Shown one piece after another: positions 20,994-54,613 of a stretch of 64,000 nt of DNA. Each line of letters opens with the position of its first letter. Position 1 is the first letter of the stretch. This DNA comes from Patescibacteria group bacterium (GTDB lineage Bacteria; Patescibacteriota; Microgenomatia; UBA8517), in assembly GCA_041742135.1 (NCBI GenBank), contig JBGSJG010000004.1, forward strand, positions 171,773-235,772, written 5' to 3'. Both the position numbers and the translations under genes were made by a program. Under the pieces are notes generated by a model, which made no database searches, was not told the origin of the DNA, and saw only the letters and a program-made list of their open reading frames with translations.

Positions 20994-21841
20994 CCAATAA
21001 ATCCTGGTTGTTTACATTTACAATTCTTTTTCTGGCTGCGCTCATTGTTTGGATTGGTGCACTGAATCGCCCGACTCAAAAGCTTAAGGTGATTGCTTGC
21101 GATGTGGGGCAAGGGGACGCGTATTTAATAACACTCGGAAACTTTCAGGCTCTTATCGACGGCGGCCCTAATAACAAAGTTCTTGATTGTCTGGGAAGAT
21201 ACGTTTCATTTTTTGATCGTGATATCGAGATCGTAATTCAAACTCACCCGGACGCGGACCACTATACCGGGCTTGTTGAGGTCTTAAAAAGATATAACGT
21301 CAAACACCTTGTTTATAGCGAAGCTCGCAAAGATAACGACGCTTATAGCGAGTTTCTTGATGCTGCCAATGCTGAGGGCGCAAATAGGGTAGTGGCAGTA
21401 AGTGGCAAAAAAATTGTATATGGAGATTTACATTTTGAGATAGTAAGCCCTATTAATTCGATGTTTGTAGCAGGGGAGGAAATTGACGAAGATGAGTCAA
21501 ACGACTATTCTGTTGTAACTCACTTGGTATATGGGGATTTTAGTGCTCTTTTTACCGGGGACTTAACACCAAAAGTAACCCAGAAACTTGTGAGCTTAAA
21601 CCAAATTCCAGATGTTGATTACTTAAGCGTTCCGCATCATGGATCAAAAAATGGTTTAACACAGATACTACTACAAAAGACTACACCTAACGTTACTGTA
21701 ATCTCAGTGGGACTCAAAAATCGCTACGGCCACCCGCACGAGGATGTTTTGAAGTTACTTGATGGTTATAAGTATTTTAGGACAGACCAGGTAGGTGAAG
21801 TGGTTTTGCAGGGTGATGGAAAAATTTGGGATATTTATTAA
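20990..21841 (+). CDS. comEC: ComEC C-terminal metallo-beta-lactamase (MBL-fold nuclease) domain as a separate ORF.
   Basis: VIACDVGQGDAYLI...IDGGP...IQTHPDADHYTGL is the MBL HxHxDH-type motif. GTG start at 20990 overlaps the upstream TGA (GTGA). Confidence 0.8.
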   Translation: MTNKSWLFTFTILFLAALIVWIGALNRPTQKLKVIACDVGQGDAYLITLGNFQALIDGGPNNKVLDCLGRYVSFFDRDIEIVIQTHPDADHYTGLVEVLKRYNVKHLVYSEARKDNDAYSEFLDAANAEGANRVVAVSGKKIVYGDLHFEIVSPINSMFVAGEEIDEDESNDYSVVTHLVYGDFSALFTGDLTPKVTQKLVSLNQIPDVDYLSVPHHGSKNGLTQILLQKTTPNVTVISVGLKNRYGHPHEDVLKLLDGYKYFRTDQVGEVVLQGDGKIWDIY

Positions 21842-33540: not shown

Positions 33541-33560
33541 GGAAATTTAATTTTATAATA

Positions 33561-41800: not shown

Positions 41801-44800
41801 GATTGAGTCGCCAACAAATGCAAATGCTCCAGTTGTTGCGGCGGATGACGTAAATGTTTGAGCCCCTGTGCCTGAGGTAAAGGCTAGCGCCGAAGCTCCT
41901 GTGTTGTTGCCTACTGTGATTGTTCTTGCAGCTGAGCCAGTGCCAATATTTATGGCTTGAGCAACTGCGTCGTTACCTATACTAATAGCTCCACCAGATG
42001 AGTTGATTTGAAGAGCACCGGTAGCATCGATATCTAAAGTTGTCGATGAGATTGCGCCTGTGTCTCCGCCGTCTCCGATTGTAAATACTCCATTTGCGTC
42101 AAGCGTTCCATCGACTGTTACATTGTCTGCTCCGGTTGCAGTGGTGAGCGTTGTTCCTGTTCGTGTCCAATATCCCACAGTCCCTGTGGCTGCACCAGTG
42201 ATGTTACCAGAACAAACTAAGTTTCCATTTGATTGGTCCAAGGTACAACCCGTATCTCCTGAGCCTCCAGCAAAAACTATGTTGCCAGCTCCACTTCCTG
42301 TCGGGCCAATGTTAAATGTGGTCGCAGCTCCGCCGAAGTTGATTTGGGTAGAGGCTGAGTTTAATAAATTGAATGTTGCCGGCCCGACGATTGTGTCCGC
42401 GGTTCCTACAAATGTTAAGTCTCCAGTTGCATTAAACTGCGCATAATTGGTGGCTCCGCCATCGCCAACAGATGTGACTCCAAGTAAGCCAATTGTGGAT
42501 GTGGCCAAACCTCCAATGTTAATATCATCTGCTGTTGATCCTCCTGTACCAATATTGATTGTGTCCGCGCCAGTTCCTGTACCAATATTGAAAGCACGGG
42601 TCAAAGCTCCGCCGGCTCCTAGATTTAGCGTTGTCGCTGCTGTCGTTCCCACCGATACCGTTGTTGCCGTGGTATATCCAAGCTGAAGTTCACCTGCGCC
42701 ATTGGTGTCTAGGCCAACCCCTGCAGCTACAGTAATGTTTCCCGTTGATGCAACATCAAAGTTATCAAAGTTAATAACAGCCGTGGTTCCAGCAATATTG
42801 TTTGCTCCAACATTTATTGCATTGAAAAATCCTGCATCAGATACATCAATTGCATCTGCTGTGGTATCAGTTGAAGCGGTGTTGAGTAGCAAGTAATCTG
42901 TAATTCCGTCGGCTGTAGTATCAAGATTGTCCAGCTGGAAGATAAAAGCAGAGTCAGTTCCTGTTGCGTCGGGATTGCTGAAGACGATTGAATCATCTGC
43001 AGCTGTAAATGCAATAGTTGTATTGCCGGTATCTGTGTCGTTGTTGTAAGCAGTTTGCAGTGTCACTGAGCTGGCACCAGTATCATCATCTCCACAAGTG
43101 ATGACTCCGTTTGCATCAGTTGTTAAAACACCGCCATTGGCGGAACCAGAGCAGTTAAGGGCTGCGCCACCATCATATAGTCGTATATCTCCAGACGCAT
43201 TTAAGATGATGTCGTCTTCGGCTCTTATGTCTACATCATTGCCATCCGCTACCTGTGAGGGGAGCGTATCACCTCCACCAAGAAGAAGATTCGCCGTGTC
43301 TGAATTTGCGAGAACACTTAGGTTTCCAGCTGTTGTTGACCATACACTGGCTGCATTTCCAGTTAAGGTTAACGCCTGTGAAGCATCACCTGCCACAACC
43401 AGTGCAGCGCCCGATGGGCCAGTGATGTTTCCACCTGAAACAACCAAATCTCCAGTTATTGAAAGATCACCAGCGTTGGAGTTGTCAGTCAATGTCAAAA
43501 GATCATTTCCTGCGGCATCTTCTAGCGTAAAGACTCCCGTGTCAGCTATGCCGATGCTTGTGGTTGTGTCATTAAAGAATAGATTTGAATCCCAGCCGCT
43601 TCCGATGTTGATTGCATTTTCAGTCGCTTGAGCGTCGCCGGTAATTGCTGCTATGTCAATTCCGTAGAATGCGTTACTTGTTCCAGCATGATCAGCATTG
43701 GTATAGTTTAGGTATAGTCCGCGGAAGGTGTCAGAGTTGTCAAAAGCCCCCAGTGTCCCTGAAAGCGTGGCTGCATTACTTGAGCCGGCGGCTGCGTTTA
43801 CATTTAACACTGAAAGGTTTCTGGAAGCAGCAATGCTTAATGTGGTGTCGTTGTCGGATAGTGCTGAATCAACAAGGTTTGATCCAGAACTGTCCCATCG
43901 TGGGAGGAAGTCTTCTGTTCCAGACCCTGAAACTCCACCACTACCAACAGTACACGTAACCACGTTATTTGATCCATCTACACATAGAGCGTTACCAGAT
44001 CCGCTGGTAAGGCCAGATATGTTTAGGTAAGAGCCGGAAGCGTTTGCTGTCACAAGTGTAATGTCCCCACCACCGGCAGGATCAAGAGAAATGTCGCCAG
44101 AAGTAGTAGTCGTCAGGGAGAGGTTGGCACCTGTTGAGTTTAATCCCAAAGCTCCGCTTGAGCTTAGTGAGTTTGCATCAAGAGTTGTGCTGTCCACTAG
44201 TAGAGATGCTAAGGTTCCAGCACCCGCACCAGTTATTGACCAGTTGGGATCAGTAAGCGCGAGATCTATGTTTGTCGCAAGACCGATATTTATAGTTTGA
44301 GTGACATTTGATGTTCCAATGTTTAAGGCAGAACCGGCTGTTCCGTTGATCGATATATCATCTGTGGCAGCCAATGTGATGTCACCGTTTGAAGCACCAC
44401 CGGCCGTGAGCGTGATTGAACCATCAGTGGTATCAACCGTGACGTTTCCTGCTGAGTTTATATCAATTCCGCCAGCGCTGGTGTTTAGCGACAATGCATC
44501 TGCTCCGGTTCCAGCCGAAGAGAGAATCAAGGATGAGTTGGTAGCTCCTGTTACTGAAATATCCAAATCATCAGCATCACCACTTGAAGCTTTAGTGATT
44601 AAGTCCCCTGTGCCCACGAAAGATACATCTCCAGTAGAGCTCACTTGGAACAAGTCCCCATTGCCTACGCTCAAAGCGGCGGCAGGCGAGGAATCTCCAA
44701 TACCAAAGTTCCCTGCGTGATACGACTGGCCACCTGCGGAGTAGATTGAGTGATAACTATCAGCTGGTCCTGCATTGGCGTTGATGTAAAGCCCATAGCC

Positions 44801-47800
44801 AGTAATAGTGCCTGCTCCACCACCGAATTGGGCATTTATGTGAACTCCGTAGCCGGTTATATTACTGCCAGTTGAATTTACCCCAGCTACAGAATCTGCA
44901 TAAAGGCCTTTGACTGTGGCAGTACCCGAGCTTGCGGTTCCAAGGTCATATGCTGAAGCATAAACTCCAAGCAAAGTCCTAGCTGAAGAAGAGGTGTTTA
45001 GGGCATAAGCATTAATAGCATTATTGTAATCTCCTCCAGAGGCTTGGGTGTAAATTCCATAATTATTTAATGCATTACCTCCAGCTGACTCAGTTGCTGA
45101 GTTGAGATAATAGCCGCCGTATGTCGCCAGGTTTCCTGCTGTTGTATCAAATGTGCCAGCATTTGTTACGTACAAATTCTTGAAGTCAGCCGTGGTTACA
45201 CCAGTATCAATATTATCAAGCTGAAGTACAAAGGCAGAGTCAGTTCCGGCAGATGCAGTTGGATTTCTAAATATTAATGAATCATCGTCTCCAGAGAGGG
45301 TGATAAGTGAGTCAGATCCATTAGCGTCATTGTCGTATGCGTTTTGTAGGGTAGAGGCGAGGGCGCCGTTACTTCCTGTTATTGTTCCGGAACAGTTTAG
45401 GTTCCCATTCGACTGATCGAGCGTACAGCCTGTGTCCCCAGATCCTCCTGCCAAAAGAATGTTTCCAGCTCCTGAACCTGTTGGACCAATATTAAATGTG
45501 GTGGCAGCACCACCGAGGTTCAATGTTGTAGCTGTTGTGTTTATCAAATTGAATGTGCTTTCGTCCGTTGCGAGTGTCCCGGCCCCTACGGTTATAGTAT
45601 TGTTTCCAAATATCAACTGCGGGTCTGTCCCGCTCACATCAAACGTCCAAGTATTACTCGCATTTGCGTTATCACTCCAGATAATATCGTCAAGCTCAGT
45701 GGCATTAAATGCTATATCGTCAGCATTTACTGTAATACCGACACCGTCGCCGACAGTTACTGTGCGGTCAACATCTGCTCCGACCAAGATATTGTCAGCA
45801 CCACCTGTGAGCCCAGCACCTGCAACTAAGTCACCCAAAAGGTTAACTGTGAAGTCAAGGTTTTCGTCTCCATCATCTCCGTTCGTAAGGTTTGTCAAGA
45901 CGTTTCCATCCGAGGAGGTGAATCTAAGAATATTTGAAGCTACGATCGCGTAAGTGTCAGTGTCGTCGTCAGCTACGCTCCAGCTTACATAATTGTCATA
46001 TGTTCCAGCGGCTTGGTAACCAGTACATACTGAACCAGTTGTACAAATTGTCCCGGTCTCGTTAGGGAGTGACCATGTCTTGTTGCTGCCAGTTAAATCA
46101 AGCGAGGTAAGTGTGCCTGTAAAACTTGCTGCACTAGTAGTTTGCGGTTTGATAGATATAGTATCGCTGTTCGCGGTAGTTGAGCTTAGACCAAATGTAC
46201 CATCAGCTTTTAATATGTTACTAATTCCAATGTCAGTGCTTGCTCCAGTTGCGGTCCAGGTAGGATTACCCAAAGCTGCTGCATTCGCAAGCGTCAACTC
46301 ATTAACAGCGGATCCAGTAGCAGTCAGGTTGATTAACTCGTTTCCGTTTGTATCTAAAATAGCCGTACCGATTCTTGGAGAGGTAAGAGTTTTGTTTGTT
46401 AATGTTTGCTGCTCGTCACGCCCTACCACTGTCCCGCTCGCTCCAGTGGCAGCTGGGAAAGTCCAAGTGTCACTATCTACACCTGCAAAAGTCAAAGAGT
46501 TATCAATATTTAGAGTTTTGCCGTTTGCAATATCTAGTGTTCCAGTTGAAGTCGTGATTGTAAGCCCTTCGTATGTAGCTCCTGTTATGGCTCCGGCGGA
46601 AGAGATCTCCCAGTCGCTTGAGAATATTGAAACCTCAGCTGAGTTGTCTCCAGTTGCCGCGTCCCCCAGAATCAACCCGTTTCCTGCAGCTGCTCCGAGT
46701 TGGATAGTGTCTGCGCCTTCGTCTACAAGGAGCCAATTAGTAGCTCCATCCCAAATTCTGAAGTCTCCTGTGTCTGTTCCCTCTCCAACCTCAAAATCTA
46801 CATTAGCTGTTTGAGCATCTATGTCGAGTGCTCCTTCTCCTGAGGTAATGTCGATAGTGTTTCCGGATGTATAGGCTTGCTGCAAAGTGGTGGAAGCGCC
46901 GGAAATGCTTGCCCAAGCTGACCCATCCCACACTTTTACAAGATTGGTATCAGATTCATAGGCTAGGTAGCCTTCGGCTGAGCCTCCAGGTCCTGTCGAG
47001 GATAGGGAAGTGCCGGTAGGAAGCTTAAGCCCATACGAGCTGGTGGACTCTGGGTCAATAGCAGACAAATCAAGAAGTGTATTGGCAGCGAGCGTAATGT
47101 TACTTCCTGAATAGATTCCGTTATCCCAGCCAGCGCCAATATTAAGTGCATTTTCTGTGGCCTCAGCGTCAGCTGTTATACCAGCTATGTCGATTCCGTA
47201 AAATGCGTTTGTGGATCCGGTATGATTTGCATTTGCGTAGTTCAGATACAACCCTCGGAAGGTATCTGAGTTATCGAAAGCTCCAAGTGTTCCCGAAAGT
47301 GTTACTGAGTTAGCGCTTGCTCCAGCTCCGTTTACTAGGCTAAATGTGTAAGCGCCTGTGCCTTCGTCGCCGTTATTCCTTAGGTAAATATCATCAATAG
47401 TTACGTCTCCGCTTGTCACGGTGAAATAGCTATCGTTGAAGCTGGCAACACCCTTTGTGCTGGTGGTTGCATCTACTCCTGCAATAGCCAAACTGTTTGC
47501 TCCTGCCGTAGTAGTAATGCCGTTTGAACCACTGAAATCAACAATGTAGCCTGTGGTTACGTTTTGGTTTGAGCCTGCATCTGCTTGGAGAACCCAGTTT
47601 TGGTAATTGTCCGAGGTTGGGATATCTGAGGTTAGTGCAATTGTTCCAGTGGTGTTGGGTAACGACCATGTTTTGTCAGAACCTGTTAGGTCAAGAGATG
47701 TAAGCGTGCCTGTGAAGCTTGCCGCTGCACTTGTTGTTTGTGGTTTGATAGCTATTGTATCTGTGTTGGCAGTGCTTGAGCTAAATGTTGCAGAGTTTGT

Positions 47801-50800
47801 AGTGCTCAATGTTGAGCTGAAAACTCCAGAGGTTTGGGTGAATCCTGTAACTGCACCCAAGGCTCCAGAGTTAACGTTTAATCCATTTAACGATCCGGTT
47901 GTGGCTGCAGTTAATGTGCCACCAGTGGAAAGGTTTCCGGAGTCATCGATCGTGACTGATGAGTTTTGGATAAGCTTGCCTGTTGTCAAATCAAATCTTG
48001 CAATGGCGTGATCTGTTGAGCTTGCTGGGCCGACCACGTCACCTGTTCCACCTACACCAGCGCAGTTTCCAGTTGATAAACAAAATTCTGCGTCGCTGCC
48101 CTCGTAGGGGATGGTGTAAGTTCTGTCCGCTGTTGGGTCTTCAGCAATAATGTATAAATCGTTGGCGTCGTCGGTTGAGCCTTCAATTTCAAAGATATTC
48201 TGCCAGTCTTCACCGATTCGGATTGCAGATTCAATTACGGTGGCATCAACTGAAGCTAGGTTATTGATGTTTATTCCATAAAGCTCGTCTGCGTCACCTG
48301 TGTTGGCTGAAGTAACATCGATATTCAAGGCTGAGACTATGTCTGCATCGGCATCTGCTCCAAGAGTCAGGTTGAAATCAAACATTGTGCCGGAATTGGT
48401 AATTGTCTTGGTTGTGTACAAATTGGTGCCATCATCCAAGAGGTTTGATGAGGTTATCTCGCCTGCAGTTGAGCTAAACTTTGTCAGTGCATTTGTTGTT
48501 TGGCTGGTGTAGCTCACTCCGCCCCCACCTGAGCCAAAACAGTTACCTTCGGTTGTACATACAGTTCGATTATCAGTGATAACTGGAAAAGTGAGCGTAT
48601 ATGCTCCGCTTGTTTGATCTGCAAAGGCAAGGGTCAAGTCGTTTGTGGCCAAGTCGACAGTTGTGTTACCAGAAAGAGTGGGTGAAACGAGTGTCTTGTT
48701 ACTTAGCGACTGCTGTAGTGTTGTAAATACGAAAGTGTCATCAGCAGACAGAGCGGGGATAGTAGCGATTCTTGAGGCTCCACTTGGTGCAGTAACGGAT
48801 AGTGTGAGATCGTTTGACCCTTTTTCAAAAAGGAAAGTTCCATCTGCTTGGATTCTAAATCTTTCAGTTCCTGATGCCCCTCCTGTTAAGAAACTTAGGT
48901 ATCCGTCTGTGCCGGAAGGGGAGTCGCCTGAGGCCAGTACCAAGTTTCCACCAGCACCTGTTGTAAGACCGCTTCCAGCTATTACGCTCAGAGCGCCGCC
49001 TGCATTGCCGTTTGTAGAAGCATCCGAGCCTGTGATTGCATAAGCTGTTCCGGTCGCTGCGTCTAGGAAGTTCAGGCTACTGTCAAATGAACCTGTGACT
49101 GTGATCGTGTCTGCCGCAGCGTCCCCAAAATTAAGATTTCCCTGAAATGTGTTTTCTCCAGTAAATATTTGAGTTACATCAAGAAGCGCAAACGTACCTG
49201 AACCGTCAGGAAGAGTATATGTTCTGTCGTCAGTTAAATCTTCTGAAGTAATTGTGCCTGTGAATGCATTGGTTGCAGTTAGATTCTGAGGCTCGATCGC
49301 GATAGAATCAGTATTGGCAAGATTATTGCCAAACGTGGCCTTTTGGCCGGTAGTTAAATCTACACTAAAAGCTCCTTGAGTCTGAGTAAATCCTAGAACC
49401 CCTCCGATTCTGTCTGTGATATTTACATCTCCACCGGAAGAATTGATGGTCAAGTCTCCAGTGTCGCTTACGCTGAAGCTTGTAAATGCGCTTCCATCTG
49501 TCTCTGTAAGCCTCAGTTTTTCGTCGCTCGTTGTCAAGATATCAAGTGCCGCATCGGGGCCTGCTGTTCCGACTCCCACTTTTCCATCTGTGAGTATTGT
49601 TAAAAATGGATTAGTACCGGGGGTTGCTCCGTCTCCAATTTGGAACAGATCATCATCATCGTTTCCATTGTCATCAACAACTCCTGCCCAGAACTTGGTA
49701 TCTGAAGCTGCTCCTGCATTAAAGATCAAGCTTGGATCTTCCTTTGTTAAAGTTATATCTCCAAGATCAGAGATGGTGACTGTTGAGTCTTGTATTAATT
49801 TGCCTGTTGTTAAGTTAAATCTTGCAATTGCGTTGTCTGTGGCACTTGCTGGGCCAACAACATCTCCACCTGTGCCAGTGGCTGAGATGGTCAGGGTCTT
49901 TGTGGAATTGTCTGTTGCTAGTGTTACTCCTGTTCCTGCCGCCACATTCAAGGCTGTGGTAGTTGAGCTGGGTGTAATTGTTGTTTGGGTTGGAACCACA
50001 ATTGAGGAGAACAAATTCTGATCTCCAGTGTTCGTGCCTGAGAGTGTGGCATCTCCGTTAACAGTCAATGTCCTTGAAGACCCAGTACCTCCAGCAATGC
50101 TAAACTGGCTTGCTCCTTCAGTTAAGGTTAGGGCGTTGTAGGTGAGGGCAGTAACTGCTCCGAGGTTGTCTACCTGGAATGGGTCTCCGCTTCCCACTGT
50201 GAATAAAGCGGCAGGCGAGCTGTCTCCAATCCCTACATTGCCACCGAGGAAAGAAGCAGCGTATGTAGTATCGTTTGCGTTTGCAGTTGTTACGTCAATG
50301 TATGCTCCATAGATTGTATTAGTTAAAGTTCCTGCATCGGTAAAGCCTATGTCAAGTCCTCGCAGGGTGTTGGCAGAGCTTGATGCGTTATTAGTTAGAT
50401 TGATATCTATTGCACTCTGTGTGCCACCTGCAGTTGGGATGTATGTAGCAGTCAAATCAAAGGCGTTTCCGGTTGTCAGCCCTGTACTTGCAAGGGAGAG
50501 CAAGTTTTCTGTATCAGCGTCTAAATCAAAACTAAAGTTGGCGCTTGAGCTTAAAACTCCGTCGCCCGTGAAGTATGCAATTTGTGTGTCAGCTTGAGTA
50601 CCGCTTTCAGTTACACCGCCACCTGCACCTGCACAGTTTCCCGTTGATAAACATAGATCTGCATTAGCAGTGAGGCTTGGAATTGTGAGTGTAAATGCGC
50701 CGTTTGTCTGGTCTGCCACTGCGAGAACCAAGTCGTTAGTGGCTTCATCAAAGGTAAGATTGCTATCAAATGTCCAAGCACCGTTAAAGTCTCCATCATC

Positions 50801-53359
50801 AATAGTGGTCGTGCCGAGGTCGAGGGTTCCCGCGGACAGGGAAGCGGTACCGTCTGAAAATGACGAACCAACAAATGCACCAGCTGTCGACACGGACCAA
50901 TCGTTGCCGCCAGTTATGGCGACCGTTGTGCTGGCGTTACTGTTTCCAATACTCAATGTATCAGCAGACGTACTATTAGTTGCTATATTGATAGTGTTTG
51001 TTAGATCTGTATCAACGCCGCCAATGTCTATTGTCCGAGCTGCTCCAGCGGATCCACCTGCCAGTGAGTCGCCAATGTTAAACGGGGAAGTGTGAGAGCC
51101 AAAATTGACATAGTCAATTGATACATCTATTTCGTCCGCAGGGTCTTCGTTAACCAAGAAATCGTAAGCATTGAAGCTAAGAACTGTCCCATCAACTTCG
51201 CTTCCACCTTCTTCTTTTACGCTTACAACGGCCGAGCTTAAGCCACCCGTGTCGTCAGCACAGTACCAGCCACCTGAAGTGCCAGCCCCGCCGTCATCTA
51301 AATCCGTGTCCCACTTAAGAACCTGACCTGCTGTACAGCCTCGGATTAAAGATAATCCGTCTGAAATCACCTCAAGACCAGATACGCTCGAGTTTGTGGC
51401 CGAGGCAGCAAAAGTTGTACCCGTGGCCAAGGTCAAAGCATCGGCATCAAGTTTGCCAGTCGCTAAGGTCAGCGCTTCATTCCCGCTACCTGCATATAAA
51501 ATGCCATCAAGTTCAAATGATCCTTCGACATATGCGTCTTCGCCGTTAAGAGACTGGGTCGGGGTGCCATTTCCAATTTTCAAATTGCCTGCTAAGACAT
51601 TAAGTAGGCCATTTGCTCCAACTGTAAGATTTACATTGCCTGATGCATCAGCTGTTAGGATTGGGTCTGTAACTCCTACCCCCGAAGAGTACAAGGTTAA
51701 GCTGCCATTTAGAGATTCGTCAACACCTGCGCTGAAGCTTCCGGTTGATACATCAAAGAAAAACGGAGCAGTAGATGATGTTCCCCCAAATGCCACATCA
51801 AAGCCAGCCGTGCTACTGCTGTTTGTCGGGTAAATTACATCGGGAGTGGGAGTTGTGTTTACTGTCCACTTTGAGGAGCCAGAGCCGACCGCGGAGCTTA
51901 TGTCTTCAAGCACAGTCTGCAGGTCAGTTGCTAGAGTCTGCGAAATGCTTGTGTTATCTACGCCTATTAGTCCGGCACCTGAGGCACCCGCCGCAAAATC
52001 ATTCAAGCCAATCGCGCCAATTGTGAGATCGGCTCCTGTGGCTAGTGTTAAATTACCACTGTTGTCTATTGTTACAACATTGGTTCCATCTGATTGTTCA
52101 AACACTGCAAGCAGGGAAGTTTGAGTCGCATTTGCCTGCACAAGCAATTGGATTTCATCTGTGTCCCCGTCAACGGCCAATTTTGCCAAATCGGTTGAGC
52201 CACCTATGTTGACATTGTCGGTTGTTGTCGTAAGAGCTACCAAGGTCCCGGAATCAGACCAAGCATTAACAACCGACCCTGCGACGTCCGTCCAGGTAAA
52301 TGCGCTGGTTGAAGAGTTGTAAGTAAGAACATAGCCGTTCGTGGGTGAGTTCGATGCGTTTAGATCTACTTCAGTAATAGTACCATCTGCTATTTCGCTT
52401 GTATCAATAGAGTCTCCCAAGGGTGAAACAGTTGCTGTTAGCGCGCCATCCACAATTGATATGCCAGTACCAGTAAAATCAGTGACTGTATCAGTACCGA
52501 GAGTAAAAGAAGCAGCTTGTGCATCTCCATCTATGGTTGCGTCAAGGGCTACACTTAGAGATCCGGATAACGTATTATTTACCGCAAAGAGATTTCCGTT
52601 GAACTCAGAATCTCCGGAAACAAACAAATCACCGTCTTCCAAATCAATATTTGCTGCTAAGCCGTCACCGATTGAAACTCCGCCGCCCAGAGGTTGAATC
52701 AACAAATCCTCGCTTGAAACAAGTTCGTTGCCAATCAAGTTAAGCGTACCTTCAATATTGACATCGTTCGTAAAGTTAGACTCTATGTTTACATTAAATT
52801 GGGTTGATAAAAGTGAATCGCGAGTGGCAAGAACTTGGCTTGTTTTATACGCAAAGTTAACATTTTCTGTGCCTAAAGACGTGCGGAAAAGAGGAAGCGA
52901 CTCTTTAGACCGATCAATAATGCCGGAATTTAAAATTAGCAGGCTTACGATTGTGAAGACGACTGTGAACTTAACACTTCTTGCTATTCTCTCTTGTTTT
53001 AAATGCAAAGGTCTAAAAATTCGAGGTTGATATTCCGCATTTGGTGCTTTTTGTGTTTCTTTGCGCTGTGGCAAGGGAGCACTAAAGCTCTGTTCTGGGT
53101 AAGCTTGAAACGGTTTTGGGGCAGGTGGTACATGCTTCGGAAAAGCCTGCACAGGAGTGAACGAGGGAGCCTGGATTGTGGCTTGCTTATGATGGCTTCG
53201 TTTAAACGAAATGAGGTCAGCTAATAGGTATCTGCGGTGGCCACCCTCTGTGCGCTGAGCATTTATCTTGCCGCTTTCTTCCCACCTTCGAAGAGTTTTT
53301 GAGGAGACTTTCAGGTAAGTGGCGGCCTGTTGGATTGTTAGATACTTTTGGGCTGGCAT
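38861..53359 (-). CDS. Giant 4832-aa protein: N-terminal excisionase/MerR-type HTH, single TM helix, very long Thr/Ser/Gly/Asn/Asp-rich modular extracellular region with internal repeats, coiled-coil-like segment and C-terminal module.
   Basis: The frame is continuous over 14.5 kb. The N-terminus YLTIQQAATYLKVSSKTLRRWEESGKINAQRTEGGHRRYLLADLISF matches the HTH_17/excisionase pattern. The TM helix is FTVVFTIVSLLILNSGII (aa ~130-147). Modules recur (e.g. DDDDLFQIGDG, GGAATTFNIGPTGSGAGN...GCTLDQSNGNL, GALDIDAQTANVDFEVGEGTDTGDFRIWDG). A 192-aa unit is repeated at ~85% identity. Confidence 0.8.
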   Translation of the reverse strand: MPAQKYLTIQQAATYLKVSSKTLRRWEESGKINAQRTEGGHRRYLLADLISFKRSHHKQATIQAPSFTPVQAFPKHVPPAPKPFQAYPEQSFSAPLPQRKETQKAPNAEYQPRIFRPLHLKQERIARSVKFTVVFTIVSLLILNSGIIDRSKESLPLFRTSLGTENVNFAYKTSQVLATRDSLLSTQFNVNIESNFTNDVNIEGTLNLIGNELVSSEDLLIQPLGGGVSIGDGLAANIDLEDGDLFVSGDSEFNGNLFAVNNTLSGSLSVALDATIDGDAQAASFTLGTDTVTDFTGTGISIVDGALTATVSPLGDSIDTSEIADGTITEVDLNASNSPTNGYVLTYNSSTSAFTWTDVAGSVVNAWSDSGTLVALTTTTDNVNIGGSTDLAKLAVDGDTDEIQLLVQANATQTSLLAVFEQSDGTNVVTIDNSGNLTLATGADLTIGAIGLNDFAAGASGAGLIGVDNTSISQTLATDLQTVLEDISSAVGSGSSKWTVNTTPTPDVIYPTNSSSTAGFDVAFGGTSSTAPFFFDVSTGSFSAGVDESLNGSLTLYSSGVGVTDPILTADASGNVNLTVGANGLLNVLAGNLKIGNGTPTQSLNGEDAYVEGSFELDGILYAGSGNEALTLATGKLDADALTLATGTTFAASATNSSVSGLEVISDGLSLIRGCTAGQVLKWDTDLDDGGAGTSGGWYCADDTGGLSSAVVSVKEEGGSEVDGTVLSFNAYDFLVNEDPADEIDVSIDYVNFGSHTSPFNIGDSLAGGSAGAARTIDIGGVDTDLTNTINIATNSTSADTLSIGNSNASTTVAITGGNDWSVSTAGAFVGSSFSDGTASLSAGTLDLGTTTIDDGDFNGAWTFDSNLTFDEATNDLVLAVADQTNGAFTLTIPSLTANADLCLSTGNCAGAGGGVTESGTQADTQIAYFTGDGVLSSSANFSFDLDADTENLLSLASTGLTTGNAFDLTATYIPTAGGTQSAIDINLTNNASSSANTLRGLDIGFTDAGTLTNTIYGAYIDVTTANANDTTYAASFLGGNVGIGDSSPAALFTVGSGDPFQVDNLGAVTALTYNALTLTEGASQFSIAGGTGSSRTLTVNGDATLSGTNTGDQNLFSSIVVPTQTTITPSSTTTALNVAAGTGVTLATDNSTKTLTISATGTGGDVVGPASATDNAIARFNLTTGKLIQDSTVTISDLGDITLTKEDPSLIFNAGAASDTKFWAGVVDDNGNDDDDLFQIGDGATPGTNPFLTILTDGKVGVGTAGPDAALDILTTSDEKLRLTETDGSAFTSFSVSDTGDLTINSSGGDVNITDRIGGVLGFTQTQGAFSVDLTTGQKATFGNNLANTDSIAIEPQNLTATNAFTGTITSEDLTDDRTYTLPDGSGTFALLDVTQIFTGENTFQGNLNFGDAAADTITVTGSFDSSLNFLDAATGTAYAITGSDASTNGNAGGALSVIAGSGLTTGAGGNLVLASGDSPSGTDGYLSFLTGGASGTERFRIQADGTFLFEKGSNDLTLSVTAPSGASRIATIPALSADDTFVFTTLQQSLSNKTLVSPTLSGNTTVDLATNDLTLAFADQTSGAYTLTFPVITDNRTVCTTEGNCFGSGGGGVSYTSQTTNALTKFSSTAGEITSSNLLDDGTNLYTTKTITNSGTMFDFNLTLGADADADIVSALNIDVTSANTGDADELYGININNLASVDATVIESAIRIGEDWQNIFEIEGSTDDANDLYIIAEDPTADRTYTIPYEGSDAEFCLSTGNCAGVGGTGDVVGPASSTDHAIARFDLTTGKLIQNSSVTIDDSGNLSTGGTLTAATTGSLNGLNVNSGALGAVTGFTQTSGVFSSTLSTTNSATFSSSTANTDTIAIKPQTTSAAASFTGTLTSLDLTGSDKTWSLPNTTGTIALTSDIPTSDNYQNWVLQADAGSNQNVTTGYIVDFSGSNGITTTAGANSLAIAGVDATTSTKGVASFNDSYFTVTSGDVTIDDIYLRNNGDEGTGAYTFSLVNGAGASANSVTLSGTLGAFDNSDTFRGLYLNYANANHTGSTNAFYGIDIAGITADAEATENALNIGAGWDNGIYSGSNITLAANTLLDLSAIDPESTSSYGLKLPTGTSLSSTGPGGSAEGYLAYESDTNLVKVWDGSAWASISGASTTLQQAYTSGNTIDITSGEGALDIDAQTANVDFEVGEGTDTGDFRIWDGATNWLLVDEGADTIQLGAAAGNGLILGDAATGDNSAEVSIFSSDWEISSAGAITGATYEGLTITTSTGTLDIANGKTLNIDNSLTFAGVDSDTWTFPAATGASGTVVGRDEQQTLTNKTLTSPRIGTAILDTNGNELINLTATGSAVNELTLANAAALGNPTWTATGASTDIGISNILKADGTFGLSSTTANSDTISIKPQTTSAASFTGTLTSLDLTGSNKTWSLPNETGTICTTGSVCTGYQAAGTYDNYVSWSVADDDTDTYAIVASNILRFTSSDGNVLTNLTNGDDGDENLDFTVNLLGDLVAGAGLTGGADNILVGADVDRTVTVGDGVGITVNADDIAFNATELDDIIWSDNANASNTWTFDVSGTDPQLIFGNNTITVGAGTLATDESTFNLINTTATTLNLGGAATTFNIGPTGSGAGNILLAGGSGDTGCTLDQSNGNLNCSGTITGSNGALASTLQNAYDNDANGSDSLITLSGDDDSLIFRNPTASAGTDSAFVLQLDNIDTGVTTADFKNLYVTNAGTFDTTAGNLATYGGYYLNSATESAGGNALNNYGIYTQASGGDYNNAINAYALNTSSSARTLLGVYASAYDLGTASSGTATVKGLYADSVAGVNSTGSNITGYGVHINAQFGGGAGTITGYGLYINANAGPADSYHSIYSAGGQSYHAGNFGIGDSSPAAALSVGNGDLFQVSSTGDVSFVGTGDLITKASSGDADDLDISVTGATNSSLILSSAGTGADALSLNTSAGGIDINSAGNVTVDTTDGSITLTAGGASNGDITLAATDDISINGTAGSALNIGTSNVTQTINIGLATNIDLALTDPNWSITGAGAGTLASLLVDSTTLDANSLSSSGALGLNSTGANLSLTTTTSGDISLDPAGGGDITLVTANASGSYLNISGLTSGSGNALCVDGSNNVVTCTVGSGGVSGSGTEDFLPRWDSSGSNLVDSALSDNDTTLSIAASRNLSVLNVNAAAGSSNAATLSGTLGAFDNSDTFRGLYLNYTNADHAGTSNAFYGIDIAAITGDAQATENAINIGSGWDSNLFFNDTTTSIGIADTGVFTLEDAAGNDLLTLTDNSNAGDLSITGDLVVSGGNITGPSGAALVVAGDASQALTLTGNAASVWSTTAGNLSVLANSDTANLLLGGGDTLPSQVADGNDVDIRAEDDIILNASGDIRLYDGGAALNCSGSANGGVLTTDANGVITCGDDDTGASSVTLQTAYNNDTDTGNTTIAFTAADDSIVFSNPDATGTDSAFIFQLDNLDTTADGITDYLLLNTASTDTTADAIDVSDAGFFNAINVGANNIAGTTAVINFDNFDVASTGNITVAAGVGLDTNGAGELQLGYTTATTVSVGTTAATTLNLGAGGALTRAFNIGTGTGADTINIGTGGSTADDINIGGLATSTIGLLGVTSVGDGGATNYAQFNATGDLTFVGTADTIVGPATFNLLNSASTQINFGGAATTFNIGPTGSGAGNIVFAGGSGDTGCTLDQSNGNLVCSGNITGAATGTVGYWTRTGTTLTTATGADNVTVDGTLDANGVFTIGDGGDTGAISSTTLDIDATGALQINSSGGAISIGNDAVAQAINIGTGSAARTITVGNNTGASALAFTSGTGAQTFTSSAATTGAFAFVGDSISSGTGFDLSFDALAGGKGINLTSTSTAVTTGNLFSSSLSGASAFSGNLNLFEFSGAATATGDLVRINLGASSNIGNLLNITDNGTTLFSVSESQITSALPHQFTSAGDVSFAYDIIMANQTASNISSLGPITLEAGESFESNDLTLKTYNAGDLVADIGGNLVVSSADPAIVFDTLTATDTDFWMAVIEDAGGDDDDLFQIGDGTTIGTNPFLTVNTSGGVGIADVSPSGTWLDIGANTTAIASLRLNASSAVNVSSPAIGDLWFNGTNLNFRKDGSTTVDLLAAGTTPTLQQAYEAGETIDVDSTNGALTIAGVSANIDFEIGSGTDTGDFRIWDGTNNWLLVDEDASTVNLGNANGATALNLTSGTGAQTFTSSASTTGSFAFVADSITSGTGFDLSFDGLAAGKGINLTSTSTAVTTGSLFSSSLSGASAFSGNLNLIEYTGAATATGDLLRINIGASSNVGNLFNITDNGSSLFAVNETQITSALPHQFTAAGDVTMAYDLVFTNQTASVVKSYGPLTIESGESFENQNLTLKTYGTGKIIADGGFSLGAQETLEDSTTPSVGGASHFVAANSTNRLVTTFDDGTAGQIIVIESSDTDLDFDCAGSEATINCGNVDLAAAAGDIFVWIYDGTVWNLINFMESNSDQTGSDLAEWFPANGEIAAGEVVSIDGSDPIKVQRALESDGQRVIGIVSTDPGLILGQAEEGIPYAQVALAGRVPVKVDPTSAAIANGDLVGAAATAGMAKKVDGGWVIGRALEAWTPGSGQETVTVFVNPIYVNQTQFAQTNYDQQILDLQSSLSLIQSQLDLGEETSSSGVFTDLTVNQLTVLEDAVLSDTVINGKLNIGTIQIDNANNSIDAIGALKIQPLALGNIEFMGGLISFDTNGNIVAQTVTAEKYKVAGASAGTGILLSGTTEVEIESDLVNASSLILVTPKAALAYPMAVTAKEEGVGFTVSVQFPENYDVEFDWFIVDKN
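40145..40720 (-). repeat. Intragenic direct repeat, copy 2 (576 bp; aa 4214-4405).
   Basis: The protein segment ALNLTSGTGAQTFTSS...LTLKTYGTGKIIADGGFSL. See copy 1. Confidence 0.8.
41315..41890 (-). repeat. Intragenic direct repeat, copy 1 (576 bp; aa 3824-4015 of the giant protein).
   Basis: The protein segment ALAFTSGTGAQTFTSS...LTLKTYNAGDLVADIGGNL aligns to copy 2 over 192 aa with no gaps. The nucleotide anchor cattgtctgttatgtt occurs at 41551 and 40381 (offset 1170 nt). Confidence 0.8.
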
Positions 53360-53400
53360 TTGGGCATTTATTGATTACTGAAATATTAGACTTTTAATCT

Positions 53401-53430
53401 TAGACATTAAGCTTGATTTGTCCAATTTCA
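53401..53430 (+). promoter_or_regulatory. Distal copy of a ~30-bp direct-repeat motif (ttagaCattaaGcttgaTttgtccaAtttc) in the divergent intergenic region upstream of the giant gene.
   Basis: It matches 53792..53822 at about 26/30 positions. It contains a TTGATT -35-like hexamer and the tgtcca core. Confidence 0.4.
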
Positions 53431-53791
53431 TTAAGACATATTTTGGTAGTGGTGTCAATGCTTTTTAGAGCAAAATGCACGGATTTAATGTGAGGTAAAT
53501 TGCGAGTGGCGCGTTAAACGATAGATATCTTCAGTGAGGACCTTTAGAGTGTAGATCAAGCTAATAAACTAGTAAGTAGAGTAGGTGATAATGAAATGTT
53601 GTTGTGCTGTGTAGAGATAAATGCCGAAATTCTTACCAAAATTGTTTTTAGTAACGAGGCTAACTTTAATAACCGCGAGGAAGCTTTAATTTCCGCATTA
53701 TAAGCTGAGCTCATATGCTTATTGTTTTGCTTGACGATGAATATTCTTGGTGATTCGTTTATGTGACTTTTATTGCTTAATTTCTGAGAGG

Positions 53792-53833
53792 TTAGATATT
53801 AACCTTGAATTGTCCATATTTGCTTTTTAAGTT
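53792..53833 (+). promoter_or_regulatory. Proximal motif copy (ttagaTattaaCcttgaAttgtccaTattt) overlapping a sigma70-like promoter TTGAAT-N17-TAAGTT for the 53855 gene.
   Basis: TTGAAT at 53805..53810, a 17-nt spacer, TAAGTT at 53828..53833, and the ATG at 53855. Confidence 0.35.
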
Positions 53834-53854: not shown

Positions 53855-54613
53855 ATGAAACGAAGCATACTTTTATTAGTACTTTTGCTGGGATTTATTG
53901 GTGCAGCTCCGTCGTTAGCTCAGGTTGATAGTCTTGGGTTAGCTATTCCGATAGAAGTAGAAGATGAAACGACTGGTGGTGACATTATCTGCTCGCTAGA
54001 TGGCGGCTTAGGCCTTTGTAGGTCTGACTATGACCCCGCAATGTATGGAGTTATTACACAAAGCCCGTCGATTGATTTGGCTGCCCCAGATGAAAGTGGC
54101 CCGATGGCTGTAACTACTGGGGATGCAATCGTGCGAGTTTCTACAGTAAACGGGCCAATTGTCGCAGGAGACATTATTACATCATCTTCAAAGCCCGGTG
54201 TTGGGCAAAAGGCGACAGTAAACGGATTTGCTTTAGGTGTCGCAATGGAGGAGTACGCTTCCGAAGACCCTGACGACATCGGCGAAATTTTAGTGAGCAT
54301 CAATATTCATCCCACTAGTTCATTTGTTGGCTCAAGATCGAACTTGGTTTCAAGCATTCGCCAAGCTTTAAGCGCGCCAGTTGTGGCGCCTTTGGACTCA
54401 CTTAGGTATTTGTTAGCGTTTATTGTTGCGATGATATCTTTTGCACTAGGATTTATATATTTTGGTAGAGTAGTTCGAACTGGTGTCGAAGCGATAGGAA
54501 GAAACCCGTTGGCAAAAAGAGCAATTCAAGCTACTATCGCAGCCAACATAGTGGTCACGGTTGTTATTGTGTTAGCTGGACTCGGATTGGCTCTACTTAT
54601 TCTAATTGTCTAA
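53855..54613 (+). CDS. Hypothetical secreted/membrane protein (signal peptide, Gly/Asp-rich region, C-terminal TM helices).
   Basis: Signal peptide MKRSILLLVLLLGFIGAAPSLAQ. C-terminal hydrophobic segments. It overlaps the gpmI start by 8 nt. Confidence 0.55.
   Translation: MKRSILLLVLLLGFIGAAPSLAQVDSLGLAIPIEVEDETTGGDIICSLDGGLGLCRSDYDPAMYGVITQSPSIDLAAPDESGPMAVTTGDAIVRVSTVNGPIVAGDIITSSSKPGVGQKATVNGFALGVAMEEYASEDPDDIGEILVSINIHPTSSFVGSRSNLVSSIRQALSAPVVAPLDSLRYLLAFIVAMISFALGFIYFGRVVRTGVEAIGRNPLAKRAIQATIAANIVVTVVIVLAGLGLALLILIV

What the first reader, a model, noticed from the sequence alone, without database searches (positions are those of the whole stretch)
52919..53359. Cytoplasmic excisionase/MerR-type HTH and one TM helix at the N-terminus of a 4832-aa extracellular protein
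Residues ~3-50 (YLTIQQAATYLKVSSKTLRRWEESGKINAQRTEGGHRRYLLADLISF) match the HTH_17 / excisionase DNA-binding pattern. A Pro/basic linker and a single hydrophobic helix (FTVVFTIVSLLILNSGII) follow, then about 4,680 extracellular residues.

This topology resembles ToxR/CadC-like membrane-tethered one-component regulators, but with an enormous ectodomain. The cell could be coupling surface contact or adhesion directly to DNA binding. Alternatively the HTH could anchor the protein to the nucleoid, or be released by proteolysis.

To my knowledge this architecture is not functionally characterised.
Basis: partly seen in the sequence, partly recalled or inferred. Interest (0 to 1): 0.8.

Follow-up and report, generated by a model that had tools for sequence, protein, structure and literature searches.

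The report
DNA-binding domain anchoring giant surface protein
A 4,832-residue surface protein of an uncultured ultra-small bacterium starts with a real, conserved DNA-binding domain on the inside of the membrane, and a matching DNA motif at the start of its own gene suggests the protein controls its own production.

Summary
ORF 38861-53359 (-) encodes 4,832 aa. It starts with a winged HTH (MerR/HTH_17, above Pfam cut-offs), followed by a disordered Pro/Ser-rich linker, the single most hydrophobic segment of the protein, and about 4,680 further residues.

It is not an assembly or start-codon artefact. The same HTH-linker-TM layout opens ORFs of 672 to 7,954 aa in dozens of independent Microgenomates (Patescibacteria) MAGs. 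These usually sit at one syntenic position, divergent from a 252-aa membrane protein, iPGM and an F-ATPase cluster.

The HTH is closest to Streptomyces BldC (42% identity, rmsd about 1.4 Å). It keeps every BldC residue that contacts DNA.

New here: an operator-like inverted repeat, TTGGACA-N12/13-TGTCCAA, with direct repeats in one subfamily. It lies just after a TTGACA/extended -10 promoter, across the predicted transcription start of these genes. The half-site occurs in 76% of upstream regions against 2.4% of control windows. It shows no RNA-stem covariation and resembles the BldC site.

Best reading: a membrane-tethered, BldC-like autoregulator, a new variant of transmembrane transcription regulators. 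DNA binding, repression and any coupling to the ectodomain are inferred, not shown.

The parts
38861..53359 (-). Whole ORF, 4,832 aa plus stop: HTH, linker, TM, giant ectodomain
   Evidence: P0006 in the 1.84-billion representative library is the identical-length protein, aligned to the profile over residues 1-360.
53174..53344 (-). Residues 6-62: BldC-like winged helix-turn-helix (predicted cytoplasmic)
   Evidence: Pfam MerR and HTH_17 above cut-off. PDB sequence hit to BldC 6AMA, E 2.6e-8. AF2 pLDDT above 90. Foldseek best hits BldC, 42% identity, rmsd 1.3-1.6 Å, then RacA. K21, T22, R25, W26, G39, H41, R42 and R43 equal BldC DNA-contact residues K26, T27, R30, W31, G44, H46, R47 and R48. 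They are invariant in alignments A1 and A2.
52997..53173 (-). Residues 63-121: disordered Pro/Ser/Thr/Lys-rich linker
   Evidence: AF2 pLDDT about 50-60 with no secondary structure. Linker composition across 48 homologues: P 11%, S 10.7%, T 8.1%, K 8.0%. Length is variable, with the TM starting at residue 79-207, median about 124.
52913..52996 (-). Residues 122-149: single transmembrane helix (signal-anchor)
   Evidence: Top Kyte-Doolittle window of the whole protein, 1.98. AF2 helix 122-144. An equivalent segment (KD 1.85-2.95) is present in 48 of 48 homologues that passed the ORF-length and hydrophobicity filters. Mean K+R is 2.8 in the 15 residues before it and 1.9 after.
38864..52912 (-). 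Residues 150-4832: Thr/Gly/Ser/Ala/Asn/Asp-rich ectodomain with a conserved membrane-proximal module (about residues 170-360)
   Evidence: Sequence. The module is conserved in P0001-P0003 and in loci L003-L043. No Pfam domain passes its cut-off.
39680..40093 (-). Residues 4423-4560: weak phage tailspike-like C-terminal modules (Phage_depo_C-like, Peptidase_G2 IMC-like)
   Evidence: Below the Pfam cut-off in the window protein (21.5 and 21.7 bits against 25). Homologues P0158 and P0160 pass it. Foldseek hits on the AF2 model are all weak (E 2e-3 or worse), with phage tailspikes, depolymerases and capsid proteins predominating.
53430..53458 (-). Predicted promoter: -35 TTGACA (53453-53458), TGn (53436-53438), -10 CTTAAT (53430-53435)
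   Evidence: Read directly from the sequence. The same geometry is found in 24 of 51 homologous loci, where the first half-site starts 33-35 nt after an exact TTGACA.
53400..53425 (-). Operator-like inverted repeat TTGGACA-N12-TGTCTAA, spanning about -2 to +24 of the predicted transcription start and 41-66 nt upstream of the ATG
53792..53816 (-). Degenerate second copy of the repeat (88% identical), 39-63 nt upstream of the divergent 252-aa ORF
   Evidence: There are only two copies in the 64 kb window, with 0 expected by chance.
53855..54613 (+). Divergent conserved neighbour: 252-aa protein with a signal peptide and two C-terminal TM helices, heading an iPGM and F-ATPase gene cluster
   Evidence: No Pfam hit. 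A homologue is divergent from the HTH gene in 56 of 80 loci. iPGM is present in 31 loci and ATPase alpha, gamma and beta in 50.
28579..38861 (-). Two downstream DUF2341 + Laminin_G_3 surface proteins (1,766 and 1,653 aa). The first start codon overlaps the giant's stop codon by 1 nt, so they are probably co-transcribed.
   Evidence: LamG-type genes also follow the giant gene in about 10 loci.

Best explanation
The gene encodes a single-pass membrane protein whose first ~62 residues form a BldC-like winged HTH in the cytoplasm. A flexible linker of about 60 residues ties the HTH to a signal-anchor helix. The remaining ~4,680 residues are exported as a surface fibre or adhesin.

The HTH most likely binds AAAnTTGGACA half-sites that form an inverted repeat across the transcription start of its own gene. 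That would make the protein a membrane-tethered autoregulator, probably a repressor, of the operon that holds the giant protein and the two LamG proteins.

What is shown:
- the domain architecture;
- its conservation and synteny;
- retention of the BldC DNA-contact residues;
- the existence, position and specificity of the motif.

What is inferred:
- the N-in/C-out topology;
- that this HTH, rather than another factor, binds the motif;
- that binding represses transcription;
- that multimerisation of the ectodomain, or its state, modulates binding.
For: 1. The HTH is real and of the BldC type.
2. All BldC residues that contact DNA are kept and are invariant in the family: K26, T27, R30, W31, H46, R47 and R48, plus G44, whose mutation abolishes binding (PMC5859096).
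3. The fused layout recurs widely. It is found in about 62 of 80 GTDB species loci, with complete ORFs of 672-3,693 aa and 12 more exceeding 3,000 aa where they run off the locus. It is also found in 29 of 49 representative proteins of at least 1,500 aa, the largest 7,954 aa.
4. TTGGACA/TGTCCAA is the most enriched 7-mer upstream of these genes: 47 of 62 regions against 2.4% of 2,480 control windows.
5. Of all TTRGACA sites in 907 kb, 30% fall within the 200 nt before the HTH start codon, in 52 of 62 loci.
6. The geometry is fixed. The first half-site starts 33-35 nt after an exact -35 TTGACA in 24 of 51 loci, which places it across +1. An inverted repeat with an 11-13 nt spacer occurs in 30 of 62 loci.
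7. The A-tract flank was not part of the search criterion, yet it is 74-85% A. The extended site AAAnTTGGACAWWW resembles the BldC site CAATTCGGACAATTCGGACA.
8. There is no stem covariation: 6 A/C against 3 A/T combinations. The window hairpin is weak, -4.6 kcal/mol.
9. The motif follows the HTH gene where synteny is lost (L033, L039, L071, L077). A distant two-HTH relative, P0005, has two direct half-sites at its promoter.
10. Site architecture co-varies with the wing type of the HTH. Direct repeats with a 10-12 nt period occur in 7 of 22 'GNQRRY' loci and 0 of 32 'GGHRRY' loci, Fisher p = 0.001.
Against: - No binding or expression data exist for this protein or its family.
- Another regulator could bind the motif. 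Only 20 kb per genome was examined, so a wider regulon or many further sites cannot be excluded.
- The BldC NCBIfam model scores 47.6 against a cut-off of 77, so this is not a BldC orthologue.
- The predominant arrangement is an inverted repeat, whereas BldC binds direct repeats.
- About 10 of 62 loci lack a clear site.
- Evidence for the topology is indirect, and the positive-inside bias is modest.
- A metagenome-wide scan for the palindrome returned mostly unrelated sequences such as terminators.
Confidence: 0.5

Rival explanations
1. Architectural tether, working like RacA. The HTH fastens a specific chromosomal locus or the nucleoid to the membrane under the surface fibre. Its role would be chromosome organisation, segregation or mechanical anchoring, not transcription control.
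For: RacA, a MerR-like wHTH that anchors the chromosome, is the second-best structural match. The cells of this lineage are tiny, so the membrane and nucleoid are always close (general knowledge). The gene sits at a conserved chromosomal position.
Against: The sites sit precisely on a promoter and transcription start, not scattered along the DNA. The RacA NCBIfam model scores 17.8 against 170. There is no coiled coil after the HTH. The motif is AT-rich with a GGACA core, unlike the GC-rich RacA sites described in PMC5859096.
Confidence: 0.15
2. A ToxR-like sensor or released factor with other targets. The HTH regulates other genes, either from the membrane or after intramembrane proteolysis. 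The divergent iPGM and F-ATPase cluster is one candidate target. The TTGGACA operator at the protein's own promoter would then be bound by a different protein.
For: The divergent pairing with the 252-aa, iPGM and ATPase cluster is conserved in 50-56 of 80 loci. A degenerate second copy lies upstream of the divergent gene in the window, and some site lies there in 23 of 45 loci. Transmembrane regulators that act on other genes are well documented (PMC10269533).
Against: Sites near the divergent gene are inconsistent in position and presence. The motif tracks the HTH gene even without that neighbour. The motif resembles the site of the closest characterised HTH, BldC. No protease gene or cleavage motif was identified.
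Confidence: 0.15
3. The HTH no longer binds DNA. It would be a protein-interaction module, as in RodZ, whose HTH binds MreB. Or it would be a folded cytoplasmic plug that fixes the orientation of the signal-anchor or paces export of the giant chain.
For: RodZ is a precedent for an HTH-TM protein that is not a transcription factor. The distant relative P0005 lies next to mreB.
Against: Every BldC DNA-contacting residue is invariant across the family. There is no HTH_25 or DUF4115 signature. No mreB was seen beside the giant gene in the window. A co-conserved DNA motif would be left unexplained.
Confidence: 0.08
4. Artefact. A small HTH gene was fused to a giant ORF by an assembly or sequencing error, or the true start codon lies downstream of the TM helix.
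For: One locus, L022, has the HTH as a separate 93-aa ORF, probably through a frameshift.
Against: The same fusion occurs in more than 50 independent MAGs from many studies. The frame is continuous, with a stop only 6 codons upstream of the ATG. There is no other ATG in the first 300 codons. The promoter lies upstream of the HTH.
Confidence: 0.02

Closest known systems
BldC (Streptomyces; PDB 6AMA/6AMK; PMC5859096)
   Same: It is the closest HTH by sequence and by fold: 42% identity over about 50 residues, rmsd about 1.4 Å. There is no MerR coiled coil or effector domain. All DNA-contact residues are conserved. The candidate site shares the GGACA core flanked by A/T, and one subfamily has head-to-tail direct repeats.
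   Different: BldC is a free 68-residue cytoplasmic protein. Here the domain is the N-terminus of a 4,832-aa membrane protein. The NCBIfam BldC model scores below its cut-off. The predominant site is an inverted repeat with half-sites about 19-20 bp apart, not 9-bp direct repeats.
Transmembrane transcription regulators (ToxR, TcpP, CadC; census in PMC10269533)
   Same: A cytoplasmic N-terminal DNA-binding domain, a linker, one TM helix and an extracytoplasmic C-terminal part. MerR, MerR_1 and HTH_17 examples are counted in the census.
   Different: ToxR and CadC use an OmpR-type winged helix and have small periplasmic sensor domains. Here the domain is BldC/MerR-type and the outside part is a repetitive surface protein of about 4,680 residues. 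The lineage is Patescibacteria. The predicted target is the protein's own promoter.
RacA (Bacillus subtilis chromosome-anchoring protein; PDB 5I41/5I44)
   Same: A MerR-like wHTH used to connect DNA to the cell envelope. It is the second-best structural match.
   Different: RacA is soluble, dimerises through a coiled coil, reaches the membrane via DivIVA and binds GC-rich sites. None of these features is present here.
RodZ
   Same: An N-terminal cytoplasmic HTH, a linker, a single TM helix and an extracytoplasmic domain. It is conserved and syntenic.
   Different: RodZ has an Xre-type HTH_25 that binds MreB, plus a DUF4115 domain. Neither signature is present, and the DNA-contact residues are conserved here.
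Excisionases / recombination directionality factors (Xis, RdfS)
   Same: The same HTH_17/'excise' fold. These proteins bind as monomers to repeated sites.
   Different: No integrase lies next to the gene and there is no mobile-element context. The domain is fused to a membrane protein, and the gene is chromosomal, syntenic and apparently vertically inherited.

Membership tests
MerR/HTH_17 winged-HTH superfamily (Pfam PF00376, PF12728) | Domain score above the Pfam gathering cut-off | tested here: met
   MerR 46.2 bits against 28.2. HTH_17 46.0 against 27. MerR_1 33.5 against 21.6.
Classical MerR regulators | C-terminal coiled-coil dimerisation helix and an effector-binding domain after the wHTH | tested here: not met
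   AF2 shows one helix at 46-62 and then disorder up to the TM helix. The MerR_1 match covers only profile positions 2-42 of 69.
Classical MerR regulators | Operator lies between -35 and -10 of a promoter with an over-long 19-20 bp spacer | tested here: not met
   The spacer is 17-18 nt, and the repeat lies downstream of the -10 element.
BldC family (NCBIfam NF033787) | Whole-protein score above the curated cut-off; a small stand-alone protein of about 68 aa | tested here: not met
   47.6 bits against a cut-off of 77. The protein is 4,832 aa.
BldC family (NCBIfam NF033787) | Conservation of DNA-contact residues (K26, T27, R30, W31, G44, H46, R47, R48) | tested here: met
   The equivalents K21, T22, R25, W26, G39, H41, R42 and R43 are present and invariant.
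BldC family (NCBIfam NF033787) | Cooperative head-to-tail binding to direct repeats with DNA bending | not testable with these tools
   Direct repeats with a 10-12 nt period occur only in 'GNQRRY'-type loci, 7 of 22. Elsewhere the site is an inverted repeat.
Transmembrane transcription regulators (as defined in PMC10269533) | A DNA-binding domain plus at least one transmembrane region in one polypeptide | tested here: met
Transmembrane transcription regulators (as defined in PMC10269533) | Regulates transcription while in the membrane | not testable with these tools
   Only a conserved operator-like site at the protein's own transcription start supports this.
ToxR/CadC-like receptors | OmpR-type (Trans_reg_C) winged-helix DNA-binding domain | tested here: not met
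   No Trans_reg_C hit. The domain is MerR/HTH_17 type.
RacA | NCBIfam equivalog score; coiled coil; GC-rich ram sites | tested here: not met
   17.8 bits against 170. No coiled coil. The motif is AT-rich.
RodZ | HTH_25 domain plus a C-terminal DUF4115 domain | tested here: not met
   Neither family is among the Pfam hits.
Excisionase / RDF | 'excise' domain (TIGR01764) above its cut-off | tested here: met
   38.0 bits against 28.8 for the N-terminal fragment.
Excisionase / RDF | Encoded next to an integrase within a mobile element | tested here: not met
   The neighbours are housekeeping and surface-protein genes. The position is syntenic across species.
Phage tailspike-type C-terminus (Phage_depo_C, Peptidase_G2 IMC domain) | Pfam score above cut-off; an autocleaving intramolecular chaperone | tested here: inconclusive
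   21.5 and 21.7 bits against 25 in the window protein. Homologues P0158 and P0160 pass. Fold matches are weak, E 2e-3 or worse.

The most novel reading that the evidence does not exclude
The giant fibre counts or senses itself. The HTH is the first part of the chain to emerge. It would bind, in cis, the operator at the transcription start of the very gene still being transcribed. The signal-anchor would then drag that locus to the membrane. Occupancy of the operator by two or three HTHs, held together by the assembled ectodomain (possibly a trimer), would shut the promoter. Loss, stretching or host engagement of the fibre would reopen it. This would be a direct mechanical or assembly-state link from a surface adhesin to its own promoter, and possibly to the adjacent energy-metabolism operon, in an episymbiotic ultra-small bacterium.
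Probability: 0.2. Interest if true: 0.85.

Novelty: new variant of a known kind. Interest (0 to 1): 0.65.

Why it matters
- Patescibacteria (CPR) are thought to live attached to other cells. They carry few recognisable regulators, and how they sense attachment is unknown.
- This is a conserved, syntenic gene family. It wires a DNA-binding domain directly to a surface protein that is very large and highly variable in size (672-7,954 aa).
- The family comes with a precise predicted DNA target, which turns a vague architecture into a testable one-protein signalling or feedback circuit.
- It offers a natural answer to an open question for membrane-bound transcription factors, namely how they find their DNA. 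Here the target is the protein's own gene, which is physically close during coupled transcription and translation.
- It extends the BldC mode of monomeric, multimerising wHTH binding outside Actinobacteria and into a membrane context.

Tried and rejected
- A full-length (4,832 aa) homologue search timed out. It was replaced by separate N-terminal and C-terminal searches.
- RNA-hairpin or attenuator reading of the palindrome: rejected. The stem positions do not covary (A/C 6, A/T 3). The fold is weak at -4.6 kcal/mol. Several loci have direct repeats. There is no Rfam hit.
- Reading TGGACA-N16-TAAGAT as the promoter: rejected. A better TTGACA / TGn / -10 promoter lies 33 nt upstream and is conserved. 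A promoter would also not explain the palindrome or the direct repeats.
- Reverse test, scanning metagenomes for TTGGACA-N12/13-TGTCCAAnTTT: uninformative. Only 7 contigs carry the HTH.
- RodZ-like reading, prompted by mreB next to P0005: disfavoured by the invariant DNA-contact residues.
- My impression that the C-terminal hairpin of the 252-aa neighbour resembles an ATP synthase c subunit: not supported by Pfam even at E = 10.
- GC-skew search for a nearby origin: uninformative, because the skew follows gene strand.
- An exact look-up of the window protein's contig found nothing. Cluster names were empty.
- Five literature searches found no description of this family.
- No signal-peptidase (AxA-type) site is evident after the TM helix, either in the window protein or consistently in homologues (by inspection).

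Full report
**1. Observation**

The minus-strand ORF 38861-53359 encodes 4,832 residues. An in-frame stop lies six codons upstream of the ATG at 53359. No other Met occurs in the first 300 residues.

Residues 6-56 match HTH_17 and residues 8-44 match MerR, both far above the Pfam gathering scores (46 bits against 27-28). NCBIfam adds the 'excise' domain above its cut-off and a sub-threshold BldC match.

The most hydrophobic 19-residue window of the entire protein is residues 125-149, with a Kyte-Doolittle score of 1.98. The next best anywhere is 1.38.

An AlphaFold2 model built on a five-sequence alignment gives three parts:
- a confident winged HTH at residues 6-62, pLDDT above 90;
- a disordered segment at residues 63-120;
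- a helix at residues 122-144.

No Pfam family passes its gathering cut-off in the remaining ~4,680 residues.

**2. Not an artefact; a conserved family**

A profile of the first 330 residues was used to scan one genome per GTDB species. It gave 406 confirmed loci, of which 80 were fetched.

In about 62 of these 80 loci the HTH opens an ORF of at least 400 aa. In the 48 I could parse cleanly, a strongly hydrophobic segment (1.85-2.95) lies 79-207 residues from the N-terminus, after a Pro/Ser/Thr/Lys-rich linker.

Twelve ORFs end inside the fetched DNA, at 672 to 3,693 aa. Fifty run off the fetched DNA, and 12 of these are already longer than 3,000 aa.

A search of 1.84 billion representative proteins found 70 hits below 1e-30. 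Among listed proteins of at least 1,500 aa, 29 of 49 carry the N-terminal HTH motif plus the TM segment. The largest is 7,954 aa.

The named organisms are Woesebacteria, Levybacteria, Amesbacteria, Shapirobacteria and other Microgenomates or Patescibacteria MAGs. Some third-party (TPA) assemblies are labelled Gammaproteobacteria, but their gene content and synteny match the CPR loci.

The window itself looks like such a chromosome. It carries ComEA, a split ComEC, aminoacyl-tRNA synthetases, glycosyltransferases and an F-ATPase.

**3. Synteny**

- In 56 of 80 loci the HTH gene is divergent from a homologue of window ORF 53855-54613. That ORF encodes a 252-aa protein with a signal peptide and two C-terminal TM helices, and it has no Pfam match.
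- This neighbour is followed by iPGM in 31 loci and by F-ATPase subunits in 50 loci.
- LamG-type surface proteins follow the giant gene in about 10 loci.
- In the window these are two DUF2341 + Laminin_G_3 proteins. The first start codon overlaps the giant's stop codon by 1 nt.

The gene is therefore a positional orthologue across the group. Its N-terminal module is conserved and its ectodomain is extremely variable.

**4. What kind of HTH**

- By sequence, the closest solved structures are BldC (6AMA/6AMK, E about 3e-8), then a CarH-like protein, RacA and a mycobacteriophage Xis.
- By fold, BldC is also best (42% identity, rmsd 1.3-1.6 Å, target TM-score 0.74-0.84), followed by RacA.
- The BldC paper (PMC5859096) lists the DNA contacts. 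K26 and R30 contact bases. T27 and W31 contact phosphates. H46, R47 and R48 sit in the AT-rich minor groove. The substitutions G44E, R30A and H46E abolish binding.
- With the offset taken from the alignment, the window equivalents are K21, R25, T22, W26, H41, R42, R43 and G39. All are present, and all are invariant in alignments A1 and A2.

Nothing like the MerR coiled coil follows the HTH. The domain is thus a BldC-like, monomeric DNA-binding module. It is not a BldC orthologue, since the NCBIfam score is 47.6 against a cut-off of 77.

**5. A conserved operator-like site**

It is unique in the window, with 0 copies expected by chance.

Read in the gene's direction, the first copy is TTGGACA-N12-TGTCTAA. 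Aligning the upstream regions of the homologous genes shows the same element almost everywhere. The statistics are:

- TTGGACA/TGTCCAA is the top-ranked 7-mer. It occurs in 47 of 62 upstream regions of 150 nt, against 2.4% of 2,480 random 150-nt windows from the same loci.
- There are 356 TTRGACA half-sites in 907 kb. Of these, 107 lie within 200 nt upstream of the HTH start codon, in 52 of 62 loci.
- Thirty loci have the inverted repeat, mostly with an 11-13 nt spacer.
- Several loci have direct repeats with a 10-nt period.
- The first half-site starts 33-35 nt after the first base of an exact TTGACA in 24 of 51 loci. A TGn-extended -10 element lies in between.

This geometry means the repeat spans roughly -2 to +25 of the predicted transcription start, which is a typical repressor position. 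In the window the elements are:
- the -35 hexamer at 53453-53458;
- TGn plus the -10 hexamer at 53430-53438;
- the repeat at 53400-53425.

The extended half-site from 124 sites is AAAnTTGGACAWWW. The A-tract was not part of the search criterion. The site resembles the BldC optimum CAATTCGGACAATTCGGACA.

**6. Is it RNA, or another protein's site?**

- The variable stem position gives G/C 21, A/C 6, G/T 3 and A/T 3. That is no compensatory pattern.
- The window hairpin is weak, -4.6 kcal/mol.
- There is no Rfam match.

These results argue for a DNA site rather than an RNA structure. Three results link the site to this HTH rather than to another factor:
- The motif follows the HTH gene in loci that lack the usual neighbour.
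- The distantly related P0005 has two tandem HTHs plus a TM helix, and its promoter has two direct half-sites just after the -10 element.
- Direct repeats occur in 7 of 22 loci whose wing reads GNQRRY and in 0 of 32 with GGHRRY (p = 0.001).

All three are correlative. No second HTH of this type is present in the 64 kb window, but the rest of the genome was not available. Sites near the divergent gene are less regular, occurring in 23 of 45 loci at variable positions.

**7. The ectodomain**

It is rich in Thr, Gly, Ser, Ala, Asn and Asp and contains long internal duplications.

The last 470 residues have sub-threshold matches to Phage_depo_C and to the Peptidase_G2 intramolecular-chaperone domain. 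Homologues pass the cut-offs. An AF2 model (mean pLDDT 72.6) gives only weak fold matches, mostly to phage tailspike, depolymerase and capsid proteins.

A trimeric fibre is therefore possible but unproven. If it holds, the ectodomain would supply the multimerisation that a BldC-like HTH lacks.

**8. Mechanism proposed**

Shown:
- the architecture;
- its conservation;
- the DNA-contact residues;
- the motif, its position and its specificity within these loci.

Inferred:
- the HTH is cytoplasmic (no signal peptide precedes it, it is a basic folded domain, and the positive-inside bias is modest);
- it binds the repeat at its own transcription start;
- it represses the operon of the giant protein and the two LamG proteins.

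More speculative:
- The HTH is finished about 250 nt into the transcript, so it could act in cis during coupled transcription and translation and pull the locus to the membrane.
- Assembly or mechanical state of the fibre could tune occupancy of the operator.

**9. Comparison and novelty**

Transmembrane transcription regulators are a known and widespread class. A census of 50,302 such proteins counts MerR (386), MerR_1 (350) and HTH_17 (151) examples without characterising them (PMC10269533).

This family fits that operational definition. It is not ToxR/CadC-like (different DNA-binding domain), not a classical MerR regulator, not RacA, not RodZ and not an excisionase in context (see the membership table).

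Five literature searches found no description of it.

I rate it a new variant of a known kind. It combines a BldC-type HTH, a giant and highly variable ectodomain, lineage-wide synteny in Microgenomates, and a specific predicted auto-operator.

**10. Limits**

- There is no experimental evidence.
- Only 20 kb per genome was examined.
- The TM and topology calls rest on hydropathy and AF2 only.

Noticed in passing
window 53360-53367 (-); loci L014, L025, L028, L030, L034, L054, L060, L068 and others, just 5' of the HTH start codon: A conserved CTGCCC(A/G)A element sits immediately before the start codon. In other loci it lies just inside the ORF, where it encodes the Leu-Pro of 'MxxLP'. No Shine-Dalgarno-like GGAGG is present there. 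It could be a translation-initiation or start-site signal.
   Followed up: no
window 53855-54613 (+): A 252-aa protein with a signal peptide and two C-terminal TM helices, and no Pfam match even at E = 10. It is the conserved divergent partner of the HTH gene in 56 of 80 loci and heads an iPGM and F-ATPase (b, delta, alpha, gamma, beta) cluster. No a or c subunit gene was recognised in the stretch I annotated.
   Followed up: partly
L001 8001-9227 (P0005; NCBI MAG GCA_043826235.1): A 408-aa relative with two tandem MerR-type HTHs, one TM helix and a Pro/Ser-rich outer part. It is divergent from mreB and followed by a PEGA protein. Its promoter carries two direct half-sites (ATGGACA, CTAGACA) right after the -10 element.
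   Followed up: partly
window 28579-33540 and 33561-38861 (-): Two large surface proteins (1,653 and 1,766 aa), each with an N-terminal signal-anchor, a DUF2341 domain and 5-7 Laminin_G_3 domains. They lie directly downstream of the giant gene and are probably co-transcribed with it.
   Followed up: partly
window 39680-40093 (-), residues 4423-4560 of the giant: Weak phage-like C-terminal modules (Phage_depo_C, Peptidase_G2 intramolecular chaperone). This hints that the fibre folds or trimerises like a phage tailspike.
   Followed up: partly
window 19938-20993 and 20990-21841 (+): ComEC appears split into separate overlapping ORFs, one with the Competence domain and one with the metallo-beta-lactamase domain. 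ComEA lies just upstream at 19295-19930.
   Followed up: no
window 26941-28566 (+): A GH5 cellulase-family protein with a weak C-terminal match to the T4SS-pilin family. This may be a membrane-anchored glycoside hydrolase.
   Followed up: no
window 11239-12378 (-): An ORF that combines an IS200-like Y1 transposase domain with a C-terminal bacterial SH3 domain. This is an unusual pairing.
   Followed up: no
L022 9741-10644: In one Woesebacteria MAG the HTH is a separate 93-aa ORF, while similarity to the giant's N-terminal region continues in another frame. This is probably a frameshift or a pseudogene.
   Followed up: no
L084, L100, L104, L109, L118 and others (metagenome hits): The palindrome TTGGACAG-N-CTGTCCAA flanked by A- and T-runs recurs in many human-gut contigs. 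There it is an intrinsic-terminator-like hairpin, unrelated to the HTH family.
   Followed up: no
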